This document shows, in pieces, positions 19,847-30,112 of a stretch of 36,442 nt of DNA (position 1 is its first letter; every line of letters starts with the position of its first letter). Under the pieces are notes generated by a model. The model worked only from the letters and a program-made list of their open reading frames with translations, was not told the DNA's origin and did not search any database. Source of the stretch: a virus (Duplodnaviria; Caudoviricetes); the IMG/VR virus record IMGVR_UViG_3300025418_000339, positions 1 to 36,442 of that record, one strand, 5' to 3'. A program made the translations under genes and the position numbers.

Positions 19847-20913
19847 TACTCTCCATGGTTATCCCTTTCCGTAATGTTTAACCCTATCACTTGCAATGCT
19901 TGTAATTGATGCTATCGTTCGTTTACCGCAAGGGGAAGTTGCGGTTATTGGAAAAAACTTAATAATGGCAGCGCGGCACACCATGTAAAAAACCGCGCAC
20001 ACTACTGACTCTAGTGTGGCCCCGTTAGATGGGTTAGTCTTTACTGCCCGAATGTTGATCGGCAAAAGGTTAGCCACCGAGGAACTCCTGAGAGCAAGGG
20101 AGTTAAACAGCGAGTATCTATTAGCTCATAAACACGAATCACCTTATGAGCATTACAACAACTAATAGATTACATATAGCGTGATTGGGAGCAATCCCCT
20201 ATCTAACAGATAGTCCTTAACTAAGGCTATCTATGTCCACCACCGGTCAATCAGTTACGCCGCGATTAGTGAGTGGCTTTAAAACCATTACTCATAGATG
20301 AGAAGATAGCCTTAAAGCTATACGACAAACTTGAGTCACACCGACTCAACTACGACTGGTCAATAGGTTACGCTGATGACATATAGTTCATATGGTGATA
20401 TGAAATTGGGTCGCGCCACCCACCCTCGGCACATCCCCCGTCAAAGCTAGACAGATCACGCTTAAATGTCTAACCCTTAACTTAACCGTTAGAGATAGTC
20501 CGATAACCTGCAGACAATGGCGAGAGGTTGCAGAAGATGGGACTAGATAGAAAATAGCGCGGAAGTTCTCAGATAACGACTAGCCACTAGTGCGAACCGC
20601 AAGCATTGAAAAGGTTGGGGATAAAATGGGGAAAAGATAACGCGGAATAACTCACTATCTTCACAAGATATGCACAACTATAAAGCGATAAACGGGGATA
20701 AGTGGAAAGAATTCCGGGGAAATAGTGGAGTAATACCATCCCACCCCTAGGCCCTAAGAATTTAAGCGTGAAATAACCCCGAGCAGCTACCGAAAGGCCC
20801 GCCGCCTATGGTGAGCCTATCCACCCGGCTTAGATACCGGGATGACACAATTTCGCAACACTCCCGGCGAGCTATTCGCGGCCTTTATTTCTCAATTTCT
20901 AGCCCCGGGATGC

Positions 20914-20943
20914 TTGCCTAACCGTAATCTTTCCGGCTATCCT
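20914..20943 (+). promoter_or_regulatory. Putative housekeeping-sigma promoter of the ardA operon
   Basis: TTGCCT-18 nt-TATCCT about 50 nt upstream of the ardA start. Confidence 0.55.
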
Positions 20944-20992
20944 TACGCCTAACGAGTCCGGGAGAGTCCGGGCCGAATTGAAAGGTTAGGAT

Positions 20993-21565
20993 ATGAGCGC
21001 ATTAGATACCGGCGTAATAGTTGCAATAGGTAACGATCAAGAGTCAACAACTCCCCGAGCATGGGTGGGATGCTTATCGTGTTACAACTCCGGCAGCTTA
21101 TTTGGTAAGTGGATCGATGGAGTCGAGTGCGACGATCTAGAGTCTGCCGGGATCGCAACTATGGAAACGGTCGGAGAATATTCGGCTTATCGCTGCGTGA
21201 AGTGCTTCGGCGATGAATTCTCGGTAATGGATCATGAGAATTTTCTCGGACTTATTACCGGAGAGTGCAGCACTACCGAAGCAGCAGAAGCAGCGCGGCA
21301 GCTCGCAGATATTGCAGACGATGAGCGCGAGATAGTTATCGCCTGGCTAAGTAACGGGATGAAGTTCGATCTCGAGACTATGCGCGATAGCTACATCGGA
21401 GAATATTCAAGCGATCAAGACATGGCGGAAGAATATATCTCCGGCACGGGCATGCTAGATGATGCGCCGGAATTTTTAGCGCGTTACTTCGATTATGAGT
21501 CTTTCGCTCGCGATCTTATGCACGATATTTTCGAAGTATCCGGCCACTACTTTCGGAGTTACTAA
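20993..21565 (+). CDS. ardA: ArdA-family antirestriction protein (DNA mimic)
   Basis: Very acidic 190 aa; N-terminal W/YVGCL..YN.G.L.GKWI and C-terminal L.RYFDYESFARDL hallmarks; GAAAGG RBS. Confidence 0.9.
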   Translation: MSALDTGVIVAIGNDQESTTPRAWVGCLSCYNSGSLFGKWIDGVECDDLESAGIATMETVGEYSAYRCVKCFGDEFSVMDHENFLGLITGECSTTEAAEAARQLADIADDEREIVIAWLSNGMKFDLETMRDSYIGEYSSDQDMAEEYISGTGMLDDAPEFLARYFDYESFARDLMHDIFEVSGHYFRSY

Positions 21566-21727
21566 GTGAAGCTAACGAGACGCGGCGAGCGCATTAGGGC
21601 ATTACTCATCACGGCGCTATTTATCGGAGTTATTTACTTACTTAATTACTTACTCACTCCGAAAGGTTGCAGGGTATCGGTTGAACATATGTCGCAAGGT
21701 TGCAAGGATATTTTATTCCCCCATTAA
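21566..21727 (+). CDS. Small single-pass membrane protein (53 aa; not in ORF track)
   Basis: GTG directly after the ardA stop: MKLTRRGERIRALLITALFIGVIYLLNYLLTPKGCRVSVEHMSQGCKDILFPH. Confidence 0.75.
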   Translation: MKLTRRGERIRALLITALFIGVIYLLNYLLTPKGCRVSVEHMSQGCKDILFPH

Positions 21728-21731
21728 GTAA

Positions 21732-21816
21732 GCAGCGCGGCCCGGCGGCTCGGGAGTGTTCGACTCACTCCCCGCGCACTATCTCTTAGGGATCGGCCCG
21801 GGAGATTATCGAAAGG
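21732..21816 (+). ncRNA. tRNA-like structured element, copy 1, plus ATCGG hairpin and RBS
   Basis: GCGCG/CGCGC stem, GGGAGTG-TTCGACT-CACTCCC arm, ACTA, hairpin with ATCGG loop, GAAAGG. Confidence 0.7.
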
Positions 21817-21823
21817 TTAAACG

Positions 21824-22465
21824 ATGAATAGCACACTCGCAGAAAATACAGTAAATACCGGAGTAACAATTAGCGCGGATCTATTTCGCGATCTACTCGC
21901 CGGCGCTTCGGTCGCAGCTCATCCGAAAGACGATCTAACCGCGCTTAACGGCGTAAACATTCGGGTAATCGATGGAGAGTTAAGAGTAACCGCTACCGAT
22001 AGATTCCGAGCTATTATCGGAGAGACTTCTCTCGAGTCCGGAGATCTCGAAGCGATCACGATTCCACTAGCGAGCGTTAAGAAGATCCTCGCAGCGCTTA
22101 AGGCCTTACCTAAGCGCACTTTTAAGCCGGTAACGGTTAATCTATTTAAGGCCGGGGATATTCTTACCGTATCAATTAGCGCGGCTTCGCTTGAGTCTCC
22201 CGGGGATAGCTTCTCGATCTATCTCCCCGGCGCAAATTTTCCCGGTCCGGAGACTCTCGAGAAGCTATGGGATAGCGAGAAGATAGCACTCTCGGAATTT
22301 TCACTTAACGCGGAATTTTTAGCGAGCTTCGCGAAAGTGCCGGGATCGAATAAGGCCGGAATAAATAAATTTTCTTTCCATGGCGAAAATAAGCCGATAA
22401 CTATCGAAATTTCTCACGATTCGATTAAGTGGCGCGGCCTACTTATGCCGGTACGCATTAAATAA
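21824..22465 (+). CDS. Truncated DNA polymerase III beta sliding-clamp-like protein
   Basis: LNGVNI...LRVTATDRFR (cf. ATDGHRL), ANFP, LNAEFL, ENKP and GLLMPVR match DnaN motifs; only 213 aa. Confidence 0.75.
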   Translation: MNSTLAENTVNTGVTISADLFRDLLAGASVAAHPKDDLTALNGVNIRVIDGELRVTATDRFRAIIGETSLESGDLEAITIPLASVKKILAALKALPKRTFKPVTVNLFKAGDILTVSISAASLESPGDSFSIYLPGANFPGPETLEKLWDSEKIALSEFSLNAEFLASFAKVPGSNKAGINKFSFHGENKPITIEISHDSIKWRGLLMPVRIK

Positions 22466-22469
22466 CCCG

Positions 22470-22555
22470 GCAGCGCGGGCCTAGTGGCCTACGCGAGAGT
22501 GCGATCCTCTCGCCGCGCACTAGCTCATAGGATCGGCTTATGAGTGAGTGAAAGG
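22470..22555 (+). ncRNA. tRNA-like structured element, copy 2, plus ATCGG hairpin and RBS
   Basis: GCGCG/CGCGC stem, GGCC-TAGT-GGCC, GCGAGAG-TGCGATC-CTCTCGC arm, ACTA, hairpin with ATCGG loop, GAAAGG. Confidence 0.7.
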
Positions 22556-22563
22556 AAAATAAA

Positions 22564-23127
22564 GTGAAAGAATATACAGTAACCCGCTACAGCTTCGAGG
22601 AATTATCTTCCGAAGCTCAAGAAAAGGCCTTAGAAGCATGGAGATATTCTCTTTATATGGAGATTCCGGACTATCTTCTCGAAGAGTCTATGCTCGAAGA
22701 ATTAGCCCGAGAGATCACCGGCGCTTATGATCTACCCGGCGCGGATGATCTTAAGATCTCTTATTCCCTAAGCTATAGCCAGGGAGACGGGGTTAGCTTC
22801 TCCGGTCGAGTAAATAAAGAGACGGCCCCCGGCTTATCCTGGCCCGATTCGGCTATTTACGCAGAATTTAAGCGGAATTCTAATCACTACTCGCACGGTT
22901 ACACGGTTACGCCGGAATTATTCGACGCGGAAGAAGAAGAGATAAGCGACGGGATCGAAGAATTTCGCGAGTCCTATCTTAAGATCTGCCGGAATTTAGA
23001 AAAGTACGGTTATAAGTGGGTCGAAGAGTGGACTAGCGAAGCTCACGCAAGAGAAGAGATCGCAGAAGCCGGAGATATTTTCCTATTGTCCGGGAAAGTC
23101 GATCACCCTGCCGGAGTTAACGCATGA
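22564..23127 (+). CDS. Acidic hypothetical early protein
   Basis: 187 aa, GAAAGG RBS, YSFEELSSEAQEKALE and YSQGDGVSFSG motifs seen in phage early proteins. Confidence 0.8.
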   Translation: MKEYTVTRYSFEELSSEAQEKALEAWRYSLYMEIPDYLLEESMLEELAREITGAYDLPGADDLKISYSLSYSQGDGVSFSGRVNKETAPGLSWPDSAIYAEFKRNSNHYSHGYTVTPELFDAEEEEISDGIEEFRESYLKICRNLEKYGYKWVEEWTSEAHAREEIAEAGDIFLLSGKVDHPAGVNA

Positions 23128-23546
23128 GCGCCGGGACTCTTATTCGCTGCGATGAGTGTTCGGAAATTGTGAAAATAACCCTAGACCGTTACGGGTCCGG
23201 GGTTATGGGGGTTATCTCTTGCCCTAATTGTGGCGAGTCTTACGATACCGACGCAGAAGCCGACTCTATTTCATGGGGAGAGTTAGCCGAACTTACTCAC
23301 GCTACCGCGCTTGAGCGCTTCGGCTTCTGCCTATGCGAAGATCCGGGAGACTCGGAAGAGCTTCCATATTCCGACTGTCCGAAATATGCCGGTAACGGAG
23401 AACTCGTAAGCGTTAACGAGTCCGGGTTATTTATTGACTCGTTAGGCCGCTTCGGGTATCGGACTCACTTCACCGGCGCTTATATCTGCTATACCTGCGG
23501 GGCCTTATGCGATCCGGACCGGCACGGATGGGAGAATGAAGAGTAA
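23124..23546 (+). CDS. Cys-rich acidic hypothetical protein
   Basis: 140 aa with CDEC, CPNC, CLC and CYTC..C; ATGA-coupled to the previous gene. Confidence 0.75.
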   Translation: MSAGTLIRCDECSEIVKITLDRYGSGVMGVISCPNCGESYDTDAEADSISWGELAELTHATALERFGFCLCEDPGDSEELPYSDCPKYAGNGELVSVNESGLFIDSLGRFGYRTHFTGAYICYTCGALCDPDRHGWENEE

Positions 23547-23571
23547 GCCCTAACTATAAAATAAAAAAGTC

Positions 23572-29381: not shown

Positions 29382-29585
29382 ATGGCATTTTCATCAATCG
29401 AGATCAGACTGGGCGGCCTATGGGTGTCGGTCCAAAGCGAGTTAACCTACCCTGATGGGATAGATGACCTGACCTCTAGGGCGCTTTTCATGTTTAAGGA
29501 AAGCGTAAATACAGCCAAGGCAAACAACATTGATATAACGGTGATGAGTTTGATGACCGGATACCCCGAGGATACTGACGAGTGA
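29382..29585 (+). CDS. Hypothetical protein
   Basis: 67 aa, GTGA-coupled to the protease-like gene. Confidence 0.7.
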   Translation: MAFSSIEIRLGGLWVSVQSELTYPDGIDDLTSRALFMFKESVNTAKANNIDITVMSLMTGYPEDTDE

Positions 29586-30112
29586 CAACCATTATTGGAA
29601 TTCAATACGACGACTCTTGCCTTATCGTTGCTGATTCCAGGGTAACCGATGACTCAGGAAAGATCTTCAGCCATCCAAATATGACCAAGATCAATGAGCG
29701 CGGAGCGTTTTTGATTGCCGGTGCTGGTGAGATTCTTCCCTGCGATGTAGTTCAACATTCTTGGAACCCACCACGCGTAACCGCTAGAGATAAACAGAAC
29801 CTCTATCATTTCATGGTAGTCAAAGTAATACCTTCTATACGCAAATGCCTAAAAGAGAATGGCTATAACTTTGATGAAAATGGAGATGACCGCTTCAGCT
29901 TTTTAATTGCTGTATGCGGTCAACTCTTTGAACTCGATGACAATCTCGGGATCACTCAAAACAATACAGGCTTTTATGGAATTGGATCGGGAGCGCCCTA
30001 TGCTCTTGGAGCATTAGCAGTTGGTGCTAAGCCAATAGAAGCGATGGATGTTGCAACTGATCTCACCGCTTTTACTGCGCCACCGTATCAACTTGCTGAG
30101 CAATCCTCTTAA
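29582..30112 (+). CDS. Ntn-hydrolase, proteasome-beta/HslV-like peptidase
   Basis: N-terminal (M)TTIIG, ADSRVT, K at about residue 33 and GIGSG..YALGAL. Confidence 0.85.
   Translation: MTTIIGIQYDDSCLIVADSRVTDDSGKIFSHPNMTKINERGAFLIAGAGEILPCDVVQHSWNPPRVTARDKQNLYHFMVVKVIPSIRKCLKENGYNFDENGDDRFSFLIAVCGQLFELDDNLGITQNNTGFYGIGSGAPYALGALAVGAKPIEAMDVATDLTAFTAPPYQLAEQSS

What the first reader, a model, noticed from the sequence alone, without database searches (positions are those of the whole stretch)
21732..22555. Anticodon-less tRNA mimics punctuate the anti-restriction operon
Seen: two intergenic elements (21732-21816, 22470-22555) share one architecture with different stem sequences. Each has a 5-bp stem (GCGCG/CGCGC), a short GG-containing D-like segment (CGGCGG, TAGTGG) and a 7-bp arm closed by G-C with a 7-nt T-loop-like loop (TTCGACT, TGCGATC), then unpaired ACTA. 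The 5+7 bp stack is 12 bp, the same as the 7+5 acceptor/T stack of tRNA, but there is no anticodon arm. Established: RNase P and RNase Z recognise that 12-bp stack and elbow, as in the tmRNA tRNA-like domain, mascRNA and mitochondrial tRNA punctuation. Inference: the phage uses host tRNA-processing nucleases to cut its early polycistronic RNA, analogous to T7 RNase III sites, and/or releases ~44-47 nt tRNA decoys. I do not recognise this as a described family.
Basis: partly seen in the sequence, partly recalled or inferred. Interest (0 to 1): 0.9.

Follow-up and report, generated by a model that had tools for sequence, protein, structure and literature searches.

The report
Half-tRNA punctuation marks in phage operons
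Two short stretches between genes of this phage's anti-restriction operon are predicted to fold into the top half of a tRNA; they belong to a widespread, unannotated family repeated 8-14 times in some lab phages, which likely tells host tRNA-trimming enzymes where to cut the long message, though no cut has been measured.

Summary
Real. Both elements (21735-21781, 22473-22522) are anticodon-less tRNA top halves: 12-nt stack, T-loop, A73-C74 tail. Each starts 7 nt after a stop codon and is followed by a hairpin, RBS and gene. The family is widespread: 57 sequence clusters in viral/metagenome contigs, a Tsukamurella contig, and 48 unannotated copies in five cultured Streptomyces/Mycobacterium phages. 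The elbow is under selection: D-loop GG goes with T-loop U55, AG with G55, as in true tRNAs; the window has one of each. Corrections: 6+6 fits better than 5+7; many relatives have 11 nt; the link to ardA is optional (2 of 21 lineages); RNase Z is doubtful (full-length homologue in 15 of 81 Actinomycetes). Best reading: mRNA punctuation, likely slow RNase P cleavage; hammerheads fill the same slot in related operons. Against it: leaders avoid U-1, and CCA was not seen in any copy. No RNA data. No Rfam match; closest are t-elements and tLRNA-type mimics (the latter from scan notes; preprint not seen). The scan found this kind before on other DNA (e1-6118730, e1-5978086, e1-9741383).

The parts
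20993..21565 (+). ardA anti-restriction gene, first recognisable gene of the + strand operon
   Evidence: Pfam PF07275 E 1.8e-22; PHROG anti-restriction protein
21566..21727 (+). 53-aa ORF whose stop (TAA 21725-21727) lies 7 nt before copy 1
   Evidence: kept in relative L001
21735..21781 (+). tRNA top-half mimic, copy 1: acceptor-like stem 21735-40/21772-77, D-like linker with GG 21744-45, T stem 21753-58/21766-71, T-loop 21759-65 (U55 type), A73 21778, tail CTA
21782..21805 (+). hairpin directly after the tail, GATCG-containing loop, no U tract
   Evidence: weak on its own (z -0.8); not called as terminator
21811..21816 (+). RBS-like GAAAGG before ATG 21824
   Evidence: sequence
21824..22465 (+). 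213-aa beta-clamp-like gene between the two copies; stop 7 nt before copy 2
   Evidence: Pfam PF02767 E 2.9e-8; PHROG 947 and 12598
22473..22522 (+). tRNA top-half mimic, copy 2: acceptor-like stem 22473-78/22513-18, D-like hairpin with AG 22483-84, T stem 22494-99/22507-12, T-loop 22500-06 (G55 type), A73 22519, tail CTA
22523..22545 (+). hairpin directly after the tail, GATCG-containing loop
   Evidence: z -3.4
22550..22556 (+). RBS-like GAAAGGA before GTG 22564
   Evidence: sequence
22564..23127 (+). 187-aa gene of unknown function following copy 2
   Evidence: PHROG 5162, unknown function

Best explanation
The two elements are anticodon-less tRNA top-half motifs at cistron junctions of the ardA operon, and they likely act as mRNA punctuation marks that host RNase P would cut, probably slowly, at or next to G1. 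Shown: the motif, its tRNA-type elbow covariation, its fixed place just after a stop codon and before hairpin-RBS-start, and its spread. Inferred: the fold forms in the co-transcribed message just outside the footprint of the terminating ribosome; RNase P docks on the elbow and the R73-C74 tail; the cut leaves the upstream cistron with a bare ~7-nt 3' end and gives the downstream cistron a base-paired, exonuclease-resistant 5' end (tRNA-like fold plus hairpin). The early message is thus split into separately translated, separately decaying units, the job that hammerhead ribozymes are proposed to do in other prophage operons. A second, 3' cut by RNase Z is not required.
For: Elbow selection: T-loop G55 with D-linker YAG in 6 of 7 clusters, U55 with YAG in 2 of 50 (Fisher p 5e-6); true tRNAs in the same loci follow the same rule (GG in 417 of 421 U55 tRNAs; AG seen by eye in all 9 G55 tRNAs). 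Acceptor end: G1-C72 in 53 of 57 clusters; C74 in 15 of 16 clusters not selected on the tail and 48 of 48 cultured-phage copies. G1-C72, R73 and C74 are RNase P contacts (passages of PMC11143913, PMC1874595), and RNase P cuts CCA-less substrates in vivo. Position: stop 5-10 nt before G1 in 25 of 57 clusters against 2.4% of random positions and 1 of 57 on the other strand; 25 of 48 cultured copies, none closer than 5 nt. Copies sit on one strand in one run of small genes, with none in the other 93.6 kb of three cultured genomes. Type II hammerheads occupy the same stop-RNA-RBS slot in element-bearing operons (L010/L017, L019); in L019 hammerhead and element share the same RBS leader. Active hammerheads flank ardA in Agrobacterium (PMC3088659 passages). 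Protein-selected locus L547 has a copy 5 nt after the ArdA stop with every feature.
Against: No RNA data. The leader is unlike that of pre-tRNAs: U-1 in 2 of 57 clusters (local background 21%) and 1 of 48 cultured copies, against 27 of 44 matched CCA-less phage tRNAs. Host T. soli tRNAs have U-1 in only 6 of 33, so this contrast is host-dependent. C75 is absent from 16 of 16 unselected clusters and 48 of 48 cultured copies, so the RCCA contact is partial. The stack is 11 nt in 45 of 48 cultured copies; YrlA RNAs with short acceptor stems were not cut by RNase P (PMC4201824 passage). Hammerheads were seen in only 3 element-bearing loci (two of them identical), and none was an orthologous swap. 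The hairpin after the tail is only modestly enriched in environmental clusters (32 of 57 vs 27% shuffled), though present in 40 of 48 cultured copies. In L004/L010 the element precedes a terminator/promoter-like sequence, so no downstream cistron would need capping there (hexamer not enriched over control).
Confidence: 0.47

Rival explanations
1. 3' cap model: the fold evades RNase P and stays on the upstream cistron. A cut falls between fold and hairpin (RNase Z-like or RNase E/J, then trimming to C74 and possibly CCA addition), so the upstream mRNA ends in a tRNA-like 3' end and the downstream mRNA starts with the hairpin.
For: A/G at -1, no C75 and 11-nt stacks all weaken RNase P signals. 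The hairpin starts right after the tail. It has the same topology as a type II hammerhead, which cuts between two helices. All 33 T. soli tRNAs examined have C74 and 19 lack CCA, so hosts mature such ends.
Against: Long 5' leaders and C74 inhibit RNase Z. Full-length RNase Z is in only 15 of 81 Actinomycetes. G1-C72/R73-C74 are also RNase P contacts.
Confidence: 0.2
2. Uncut cis element: the elbow binds the ribosome or another elbow reader, or simply blocks exonucleases, and controls termination/re-initiation or stability at the junction.
For: Tight 5-10 nt distance from the stop and 25-55 nt to the next start (28 of 57); weak RNase P leader.
Against: Does not explain conservation of the acceptor end (G1, R73, C74) or hammerheads in the same slot.
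Confidence: 0.15
3. The excised ~44-nt RNA is the product: a decoy for tRNA-end or elbow-binding defence proteins.
For: Up to 14 copies per genome; next to ArdA or genes annotated OCR-like antirestriction protein in the window, L547, Amela and Zemlya; three copies punctuate a repeat stretch in L169.
Against: Needs two cuts; no anticodon to lure anticodon nucleases; almost always one copy per junction, not tandem; most ArdA lineages lack it.
Confidence: 0.13
4. Relic tRNA/att fragments, or a DNA-level repeat with no RNA function.
For: T-arm plus 3' acceptor strand resembles tRNA 3' halves, and CTA is a common tail of CCA-less phage tRNA genes (63 of 380 in a biased sample).
Against: Compensatory stems, tertiary 18:55 covariation, strict strand and spacing.
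Confidence: 0.05

Closest known systems
t-elements of plant mitochondria (PMC1920247; passages read) and mitochondrial tRNA punctuation
   Same: tRNA-like folds with a T arm inside long transcripts, proposed as cis signals for RNase P/Z
   Different: organelle context, larger irregular cloverleaves, ends were mapped; here a minimal ~44-nt fold in phage operons, ends unmapped, RNase Z doubtful
tLRNA-2 DUF2693-FD (RF02926) and tLRNA-3 salivarius-1 (RF03030); the tLRNA label comes from scan notes citing a bioRxiv preprint I did not see
   Same: 49-56-nt branched RNAs closed by a stem; the visible part of the DUF2693-FD consensus shows a 7-bp stem and a small D-like hairpin
   Different: neither model matches the window or the elements of four other genomes; different consensus; our family is multi-copy at stop-RBS junctions
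Tandem hammerheads of prophage operons (PMC3088659; passages read)
   Same: same slot between small genes, flank ardA, proposed to cut polycistronic RNA
   Different: self-cleaving; the element has no ribozyme core and would need a host nuclease
tmRNA tRNA-like domain / tag-less mini-tmRNA
   Same: acceptor-T stack with a D-loop-like segment, no anticodon arm
   Different: no G3-U70 in the window copies (6 of 57 clusters have it), no tag frame, acceptor 5-6 bp
YrlA Y RNAs (RF02553; PMC4201824, passages read)
   Same: D/T-arm mimic, found in phages, one is an RNase P substrate
   Different: permuted domain in a longer RNA beside Ro60; no Rfam hit and no TROVE gene among 44 window ORFs scanned
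T7 early-region RNase III sites; P1/P7 C4 and phage M3 RNAs as RNase P substrates (T7 recalled; C4 and M3 named in PMC11143913)
   Same: host nuclease processes phage RNA; T7 sites punctuate an operon led by an anti-restriction gene
   Different: simple hairpins (T7) or stand-alone antisense RNAs (C4), not repeated tRNA-elbow mimics

Membership tests
tRNA gene | anticodon stem-loop | tested here: not met
   linker of 12 and 15 nt only; ARAGORN 0, Rfam 0
tRNA gene | T-loop consensus and 18:55/19:56 elbow | tested here: met
   GG/UUCGA in copy 1, AG/UGCGA in copy 2; family-wide covariation
tRNA gene | 7-bp acceptor + 5-bp T stem | tested here: not met
   6+6 (or 5+7) here; 5+6, 6+5, 7+5, 7+4, 8+4 in relatives
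RNase P substrate | 12-bp stack from elbow, G1-C72, R73-C74 | tested here: met
   both window copies; 34 of 57 clusters have 12 nt, 19 have 11
RNase P substrate | pre-tRNA-like leader (U/C-1, A-2) and C75 | tested here: not met
   both copies have C-2 A-1 and U75
RNase P substrate | cleavage at G1 | not testable with these tools
   needs in vitro assay or end mapping
t-element (processing signal) | transcript ends coincide with element ends | not testable with these tools
   no RNA holder listed
t-element (processing signal) | tRNA-like fold inside a longer transcript | tested here: met
   7 nt after a stop, same strand as both flanking genes; co-transcription is inferred
tLRNA-2/-3 (RF02926, RF03030) | match to the Rfam model | tested here: not met
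   0 matches in the window at E<=10; no match over elements in four other genomes
tLRNA-2/-3 (RF02926, RF03030) | tRNA top-half architecture as defined in the preprint | tested here: inconclusive
   only part of the consensus was visible; preprint not seen
tmRNA / mini-tmRNA | G3-U70 alanine identity | tested here: not met
   G3-C70 in both copies
YrlA | adjacent Ro60 gene and RF02553 match | tested here: not met
self-cleaving ribozyme (hammerhead etc.) | catalytic core | tested here: not met
   no Rfam hit; no hammerhead core in the window
C4/CI antisense RNA | complementary target sites in the phage | not tested
   only the Rfam scan was done, with no hit
intrinsic terminator | hairpin followed by U tract | tested here: not met
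   neither hairpin called

The most novel reading that the evidence does not exclude
Phages have a general, modular mRNA-dicing grammar (stop - cutter - hairpin - RBS) in which a minimal tRNA elbow is interchangeable with hammerheads and is tuned away from ideal RNase P features (A-1, no CCA, 11 bp), so that bacterial mRNAs are left carrying tRNA-like, possibly CCA-tailed ends or are cut on a timer: tRNA punctuation and TLS-like mRNA ends in DNA phages.
Probability: 0.3. Interest if true: 0.88.

Novelty: new variant of a known kind. Interest (0 to 1): 0.66.

Why it matters
If right, many phages of Actinobacteria use the host's essential tRNA-processing machinery to split and time their early messages, a bacterial-virus counterpart of mitochondrial tRNA punctuation. 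The family is unannotated in five cultured phages of laboratory hosts (8-14 copies each), so the idea that such phage operons are diced into single-gene units is now directly testable. The ~44-nt folds are also natural minimal elbow mimics for probing RNase P rules and for building polycistronic processing cassettes.

Tried and rejected
Rfam: no family over the elements in the window (E<=5), 11 homologous loci, 20 more, 40 ArdA/other loci or Amela/phiCAM. RNA data: no RNA holder listed, so no reads were laid. blastn of the window copy and of the L005 and L155 copies found no cultured phage; L174 did. A pattern with a fixed GGG/CCC T stem returned mostly real tRNA/tmRNA ends. In genome contigs only 1 of 20 hits (L155) passed the descriptor. 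T-loop/hairpin-loop pseudoknot: perfect in copy 2 but mismatched in copy 1, L428 and L438, so rejected. Orthologous hammerhead/element swap in L004 vs L010 and L011 vs L019: not orthologous junctions. The idea that Y-2/R-1 compensates for 11-nt stacks: rejected, same pattern in 12-nt stacks. Promoter downstream of elements: 6 of 57 vs 7 on the other strand, not enriched. Specific link to ArdA: rejected as general. Pair counts on the T stem are circular because the descriptor requires pairing. Print searches found no description of this family. Limits: the supplement of PMC5737381 was unreadable; the alignment files of PMC10690425 were not searchable and its tables gave no hit for the few motifs and contigs tried; one Streptomyces phage genome paper was not held; the tLRNA preprint was not seen. 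Any of these may already hold the motif.

Full report
Setting. The window is a 36.4-kb virus record with terminase, capsid, RecT, SSB and WhiB genes; WhiB suggests an actinobacterial host (inference). Almost all genes lie on the minus strand. A + strand island at 20993-23546, divergent from the terminase side, holds ardA, a 53-aa ORF, a beta-clamp-like gene and two unknown genes. 'Early' is inferred from ardA and from the position of the equivalent arrays near the right end of the linear Amela and Zemlya records.

Observation. Both elements are present as described, with G1 at 21735 and 22473 and the discriminator A at 21778 and 22519. Each begins exactly 7 nt after the upstream stop and is followed by CTA, a hairpin, an RBS-like GAAAGG and the next start. 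RNAfold recovers the three-way fold. ARAGORN and Rfam are blank. A descriptor that does not use the tail finds only these two in the window, against 0.5 hits per 1.24 Mb of shuffled loci. The 12-nt 3' strand is right, but two relatives break the 7th T-stem pair of copy 2, so 6+6 is the better split.

A family. A pattern fixing the acceptor stem, T-loop and tail but not the T stem hit 25 viral loci, and in 24 the free T stem pairs. Over 492 sequences (1.9 Mb) the descriptor gave 92 unique elements in 71 loci, after dropping 14 that overlap ARAGORN genes and 5 in tRNA-rich loci; they form 57 clusters at 75% identity, 16 of them not selected by any pattern. A pattern using only the tail and downstream hairpin gave 38 distinct matches; 5 had a T-loop at 11-12 nt, two of them new. 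Tsukamurella soli carries five copies in 2.3 kb. blastn with locus L174 matched 136 phage records, 99 Streptomyces and 25 Mycobacterium. In five that I fetched there are 48 copies with no annotation (Amela 9, phiCAM 9, Zemlya 8, Damien 8, Papyrus 14; shuffled 0.5), and none in the remaining 93.6 kb of three of them.

It acts as RNA with a tRNA elbow. T-loop G55 goes with a YAG D-linker in 6 of 7 clusters, U55 in 2 of 50 (p 5e-6; clusters are not fully independent). True tRNAs in the same loci obey the same swap: 417 of 421 U55 tRNAs have D-loop GG, and all 9 G55 tRNAs show AG by inspection. The window's two copies are one of each type, as in L004 and L241; the single G55 copy in Zemlya also has AG. 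The acceptor end is constrained too: G1-C72 in 53 of 57 clusters; C74 in 15 of 16 unselected clusters and 48 of 48 cultured copies; C75 in none of either set. The stack is 12 nt in 34 and 11 nt in 19 of 57 clusters, but 11 nt in 45 of 48 cultured copies.

It sits in mRNA junctions. The upstream stop lies 5-10 nt before G1 in 25 of 57 clusters (random positions 2.4%; other strand 1 of 57), and a start with RBS lies 25-55 nt after in 28 of 57. With deposited annotations, 25 of 48 cultured copies are at 5-10 nt, 35 at 5-15, none below 5. A hairpin follows at once in 32 of 57 clusters (27% in shuffles) and 40 of 48 cultured copies. Neighbouring genes are small and mostly unknown: 2 of 61 have a Pfam hit. 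Among 41 loci chosen by ArdA similarity, only 2 of 21 lineages have the element, one being the window's own relative and one independent, 5 nt after the ArdA stop. In Amela a copy follows the gene annotated OCR-like antirestriction protein by 6 nt. The tie to anti-restriction is therefore recurrent but optional.

Why cutting is likely. Type II hammerheads occupy the same stop-RNA-RBS slot in element-bearing operons (L010/L017, L019); in L019 the hammerhead and an element share the same RBS leader, though no orthologous swap was found. PMC3088659 (passages read) reports active tandem hammerheads flanking single prophage genes, ardA among them, and proposes processing into single-gene mRNAs. Plant t-elements are the precedent for tRNA-like processing signals (PMC1920247, passages). 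RNase P measures the stack from the elbow and pairs with R73-C74-C75 (PMC11143913, PMC4919913, PMC1874595; passages), and it cuts CCA-less substrates in vivo, less efficiently.

What does not fit. U-1 occurs in 2 of 57 clusters and 1 of 48 cultured copies (A-1 in 39 of 48), against 27 of 44 matched phage tRNAs. The comparison is softer for a real host: T. soli tRNAs have C-1 16, A-1 7, U-1 6 of 33, but A-2 in 18 of 33, while all five of its elements have a pyrimidine at -2. With no C75 and often 11 bp, these look like deliberately poor RNase P substrates; short-stem YrlAs were not cut (PMC4201824, passage). RNase Z is weaker still: cytidines after the discriminator and long leaders inhibit it (PMC7479834, passages), and a full-length homologue (E<1e-70, all below the curated cut-off) was found in 15 of 81 Actinomycetes sampled (14 of 78 without three unpublished genomes), not in T. 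soli; weaker partial matches in the rest were not resolved. No RNA run was listed. I therefore put slow RNase P cleavage at 0.47, a 3'-cap model at 0.2 (together 0.67 for a processing signal), an uncut cis role at 0.15, a decoy at 0.13 and a relic at 0.05.

Known or new. It is not a tRNA, mini-tmRNA, YrlA or ribozyme by the tests listed. Scan notes point to tLRNAs (DUF2693-FD, salivarius-1) from a preprint I did not see; their models do not match, but the visible DUF2693-FD consensus is similar in build, so minimal top-half mimics appear to be a known kind. Ten paper searches, passages of PMC5737381, PMC10690425, PMC4324244 and PMC13085918 and part of one supplement set showed no description of this family; unread supplements (and zip/PDF files of PMC10690425) could hold it. 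The scan has noted the same kind on other DNA several times; those notes are not independent support. Verdict: a real, conserved, unannotated variant of tRNA-mimic punctuation with an unproven cutter; interest 0.66.

Noticed in passing
window 20740-23560: The ardA island is depleted of CA/TG (o/e 0.35-0.78 vs 1.0-1.5 elsewhere; CTGA/TCAG 0 vs 29 expected, CCAA/TTGG 1 vs 37) and rich in CG and TA. Same in relative G001, not in the other element-bearing genomes checked. Possibly avoidance of asymmetric restriction sites in first-entering DNA.
   Followed up: partly
window 21782-21805 and 22523-22545; L003, L387, L428, L438: The hairpin after the tail keeps a GATCG(G) loop on different stems across several lineages; role unknown.
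   Followed up: partly
L169:2680-3045 (-): Three copies within 300 nt punctuate a pentamer-repeat (GGCAA/GGCGA-like) stretch before an RBS, as in a processed small-RNA array.
   Followed up: no
L010:2446-2513, L017:3538-3605, L019:1039-1104: Type II hammerhead ribozymes directly after stop codons in element-bearing operons.
   Followed up: yes
L011, L172, L186, L207, L224, L278: 6 of 57 clusters have G3-U70 with A73, the alanine identity set; a possibly chargeable subclass (the search pattern allowed it).
   Followed up: no
L004:3053-3140, L010, L025, L257: Element followed by a short hairpin, T run and a TTGACA promoter-like sequence, so it may end the transcript there; hexamer not enriched overall.
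   Followed up: partly
window 21824-22465; L011, L019: A ~210-aa beta-clamp-like protein lies beside elements in unrelated phages; PHROG labels conflict (processivity factor vs RusA-like).
   Followed up: no
tRNA genes in fetched loci; G003: CTA is the commonest 74-76 triplet of phage tRNA genes in a biased sample (63 of 380, CCA 35); all 33 T. soli tRNAs examined have C74 though 19 lack CCA.
   Followed up: partly
Actinomycetes sample G003, G011-G090: Only 15 of 81 genomes have a full-length RNase Z homologue; many others have shorter matches lacking model positions ~150-200. The count includes one unpublished genome.
   Followed up: no
window 20380-20460 and 20910-20992: Short non-coding blocks are conserved with L001 in an otherwise diverged 900-nt gap; the second holds a TAATCT candidate -10 element before ardA.
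   Followed up: no
window 29582-30112 (+): A second small + strand island with a weak proteasome-subunit match (PF00227, E 3e-4, below cut-off).
   Followed up: no
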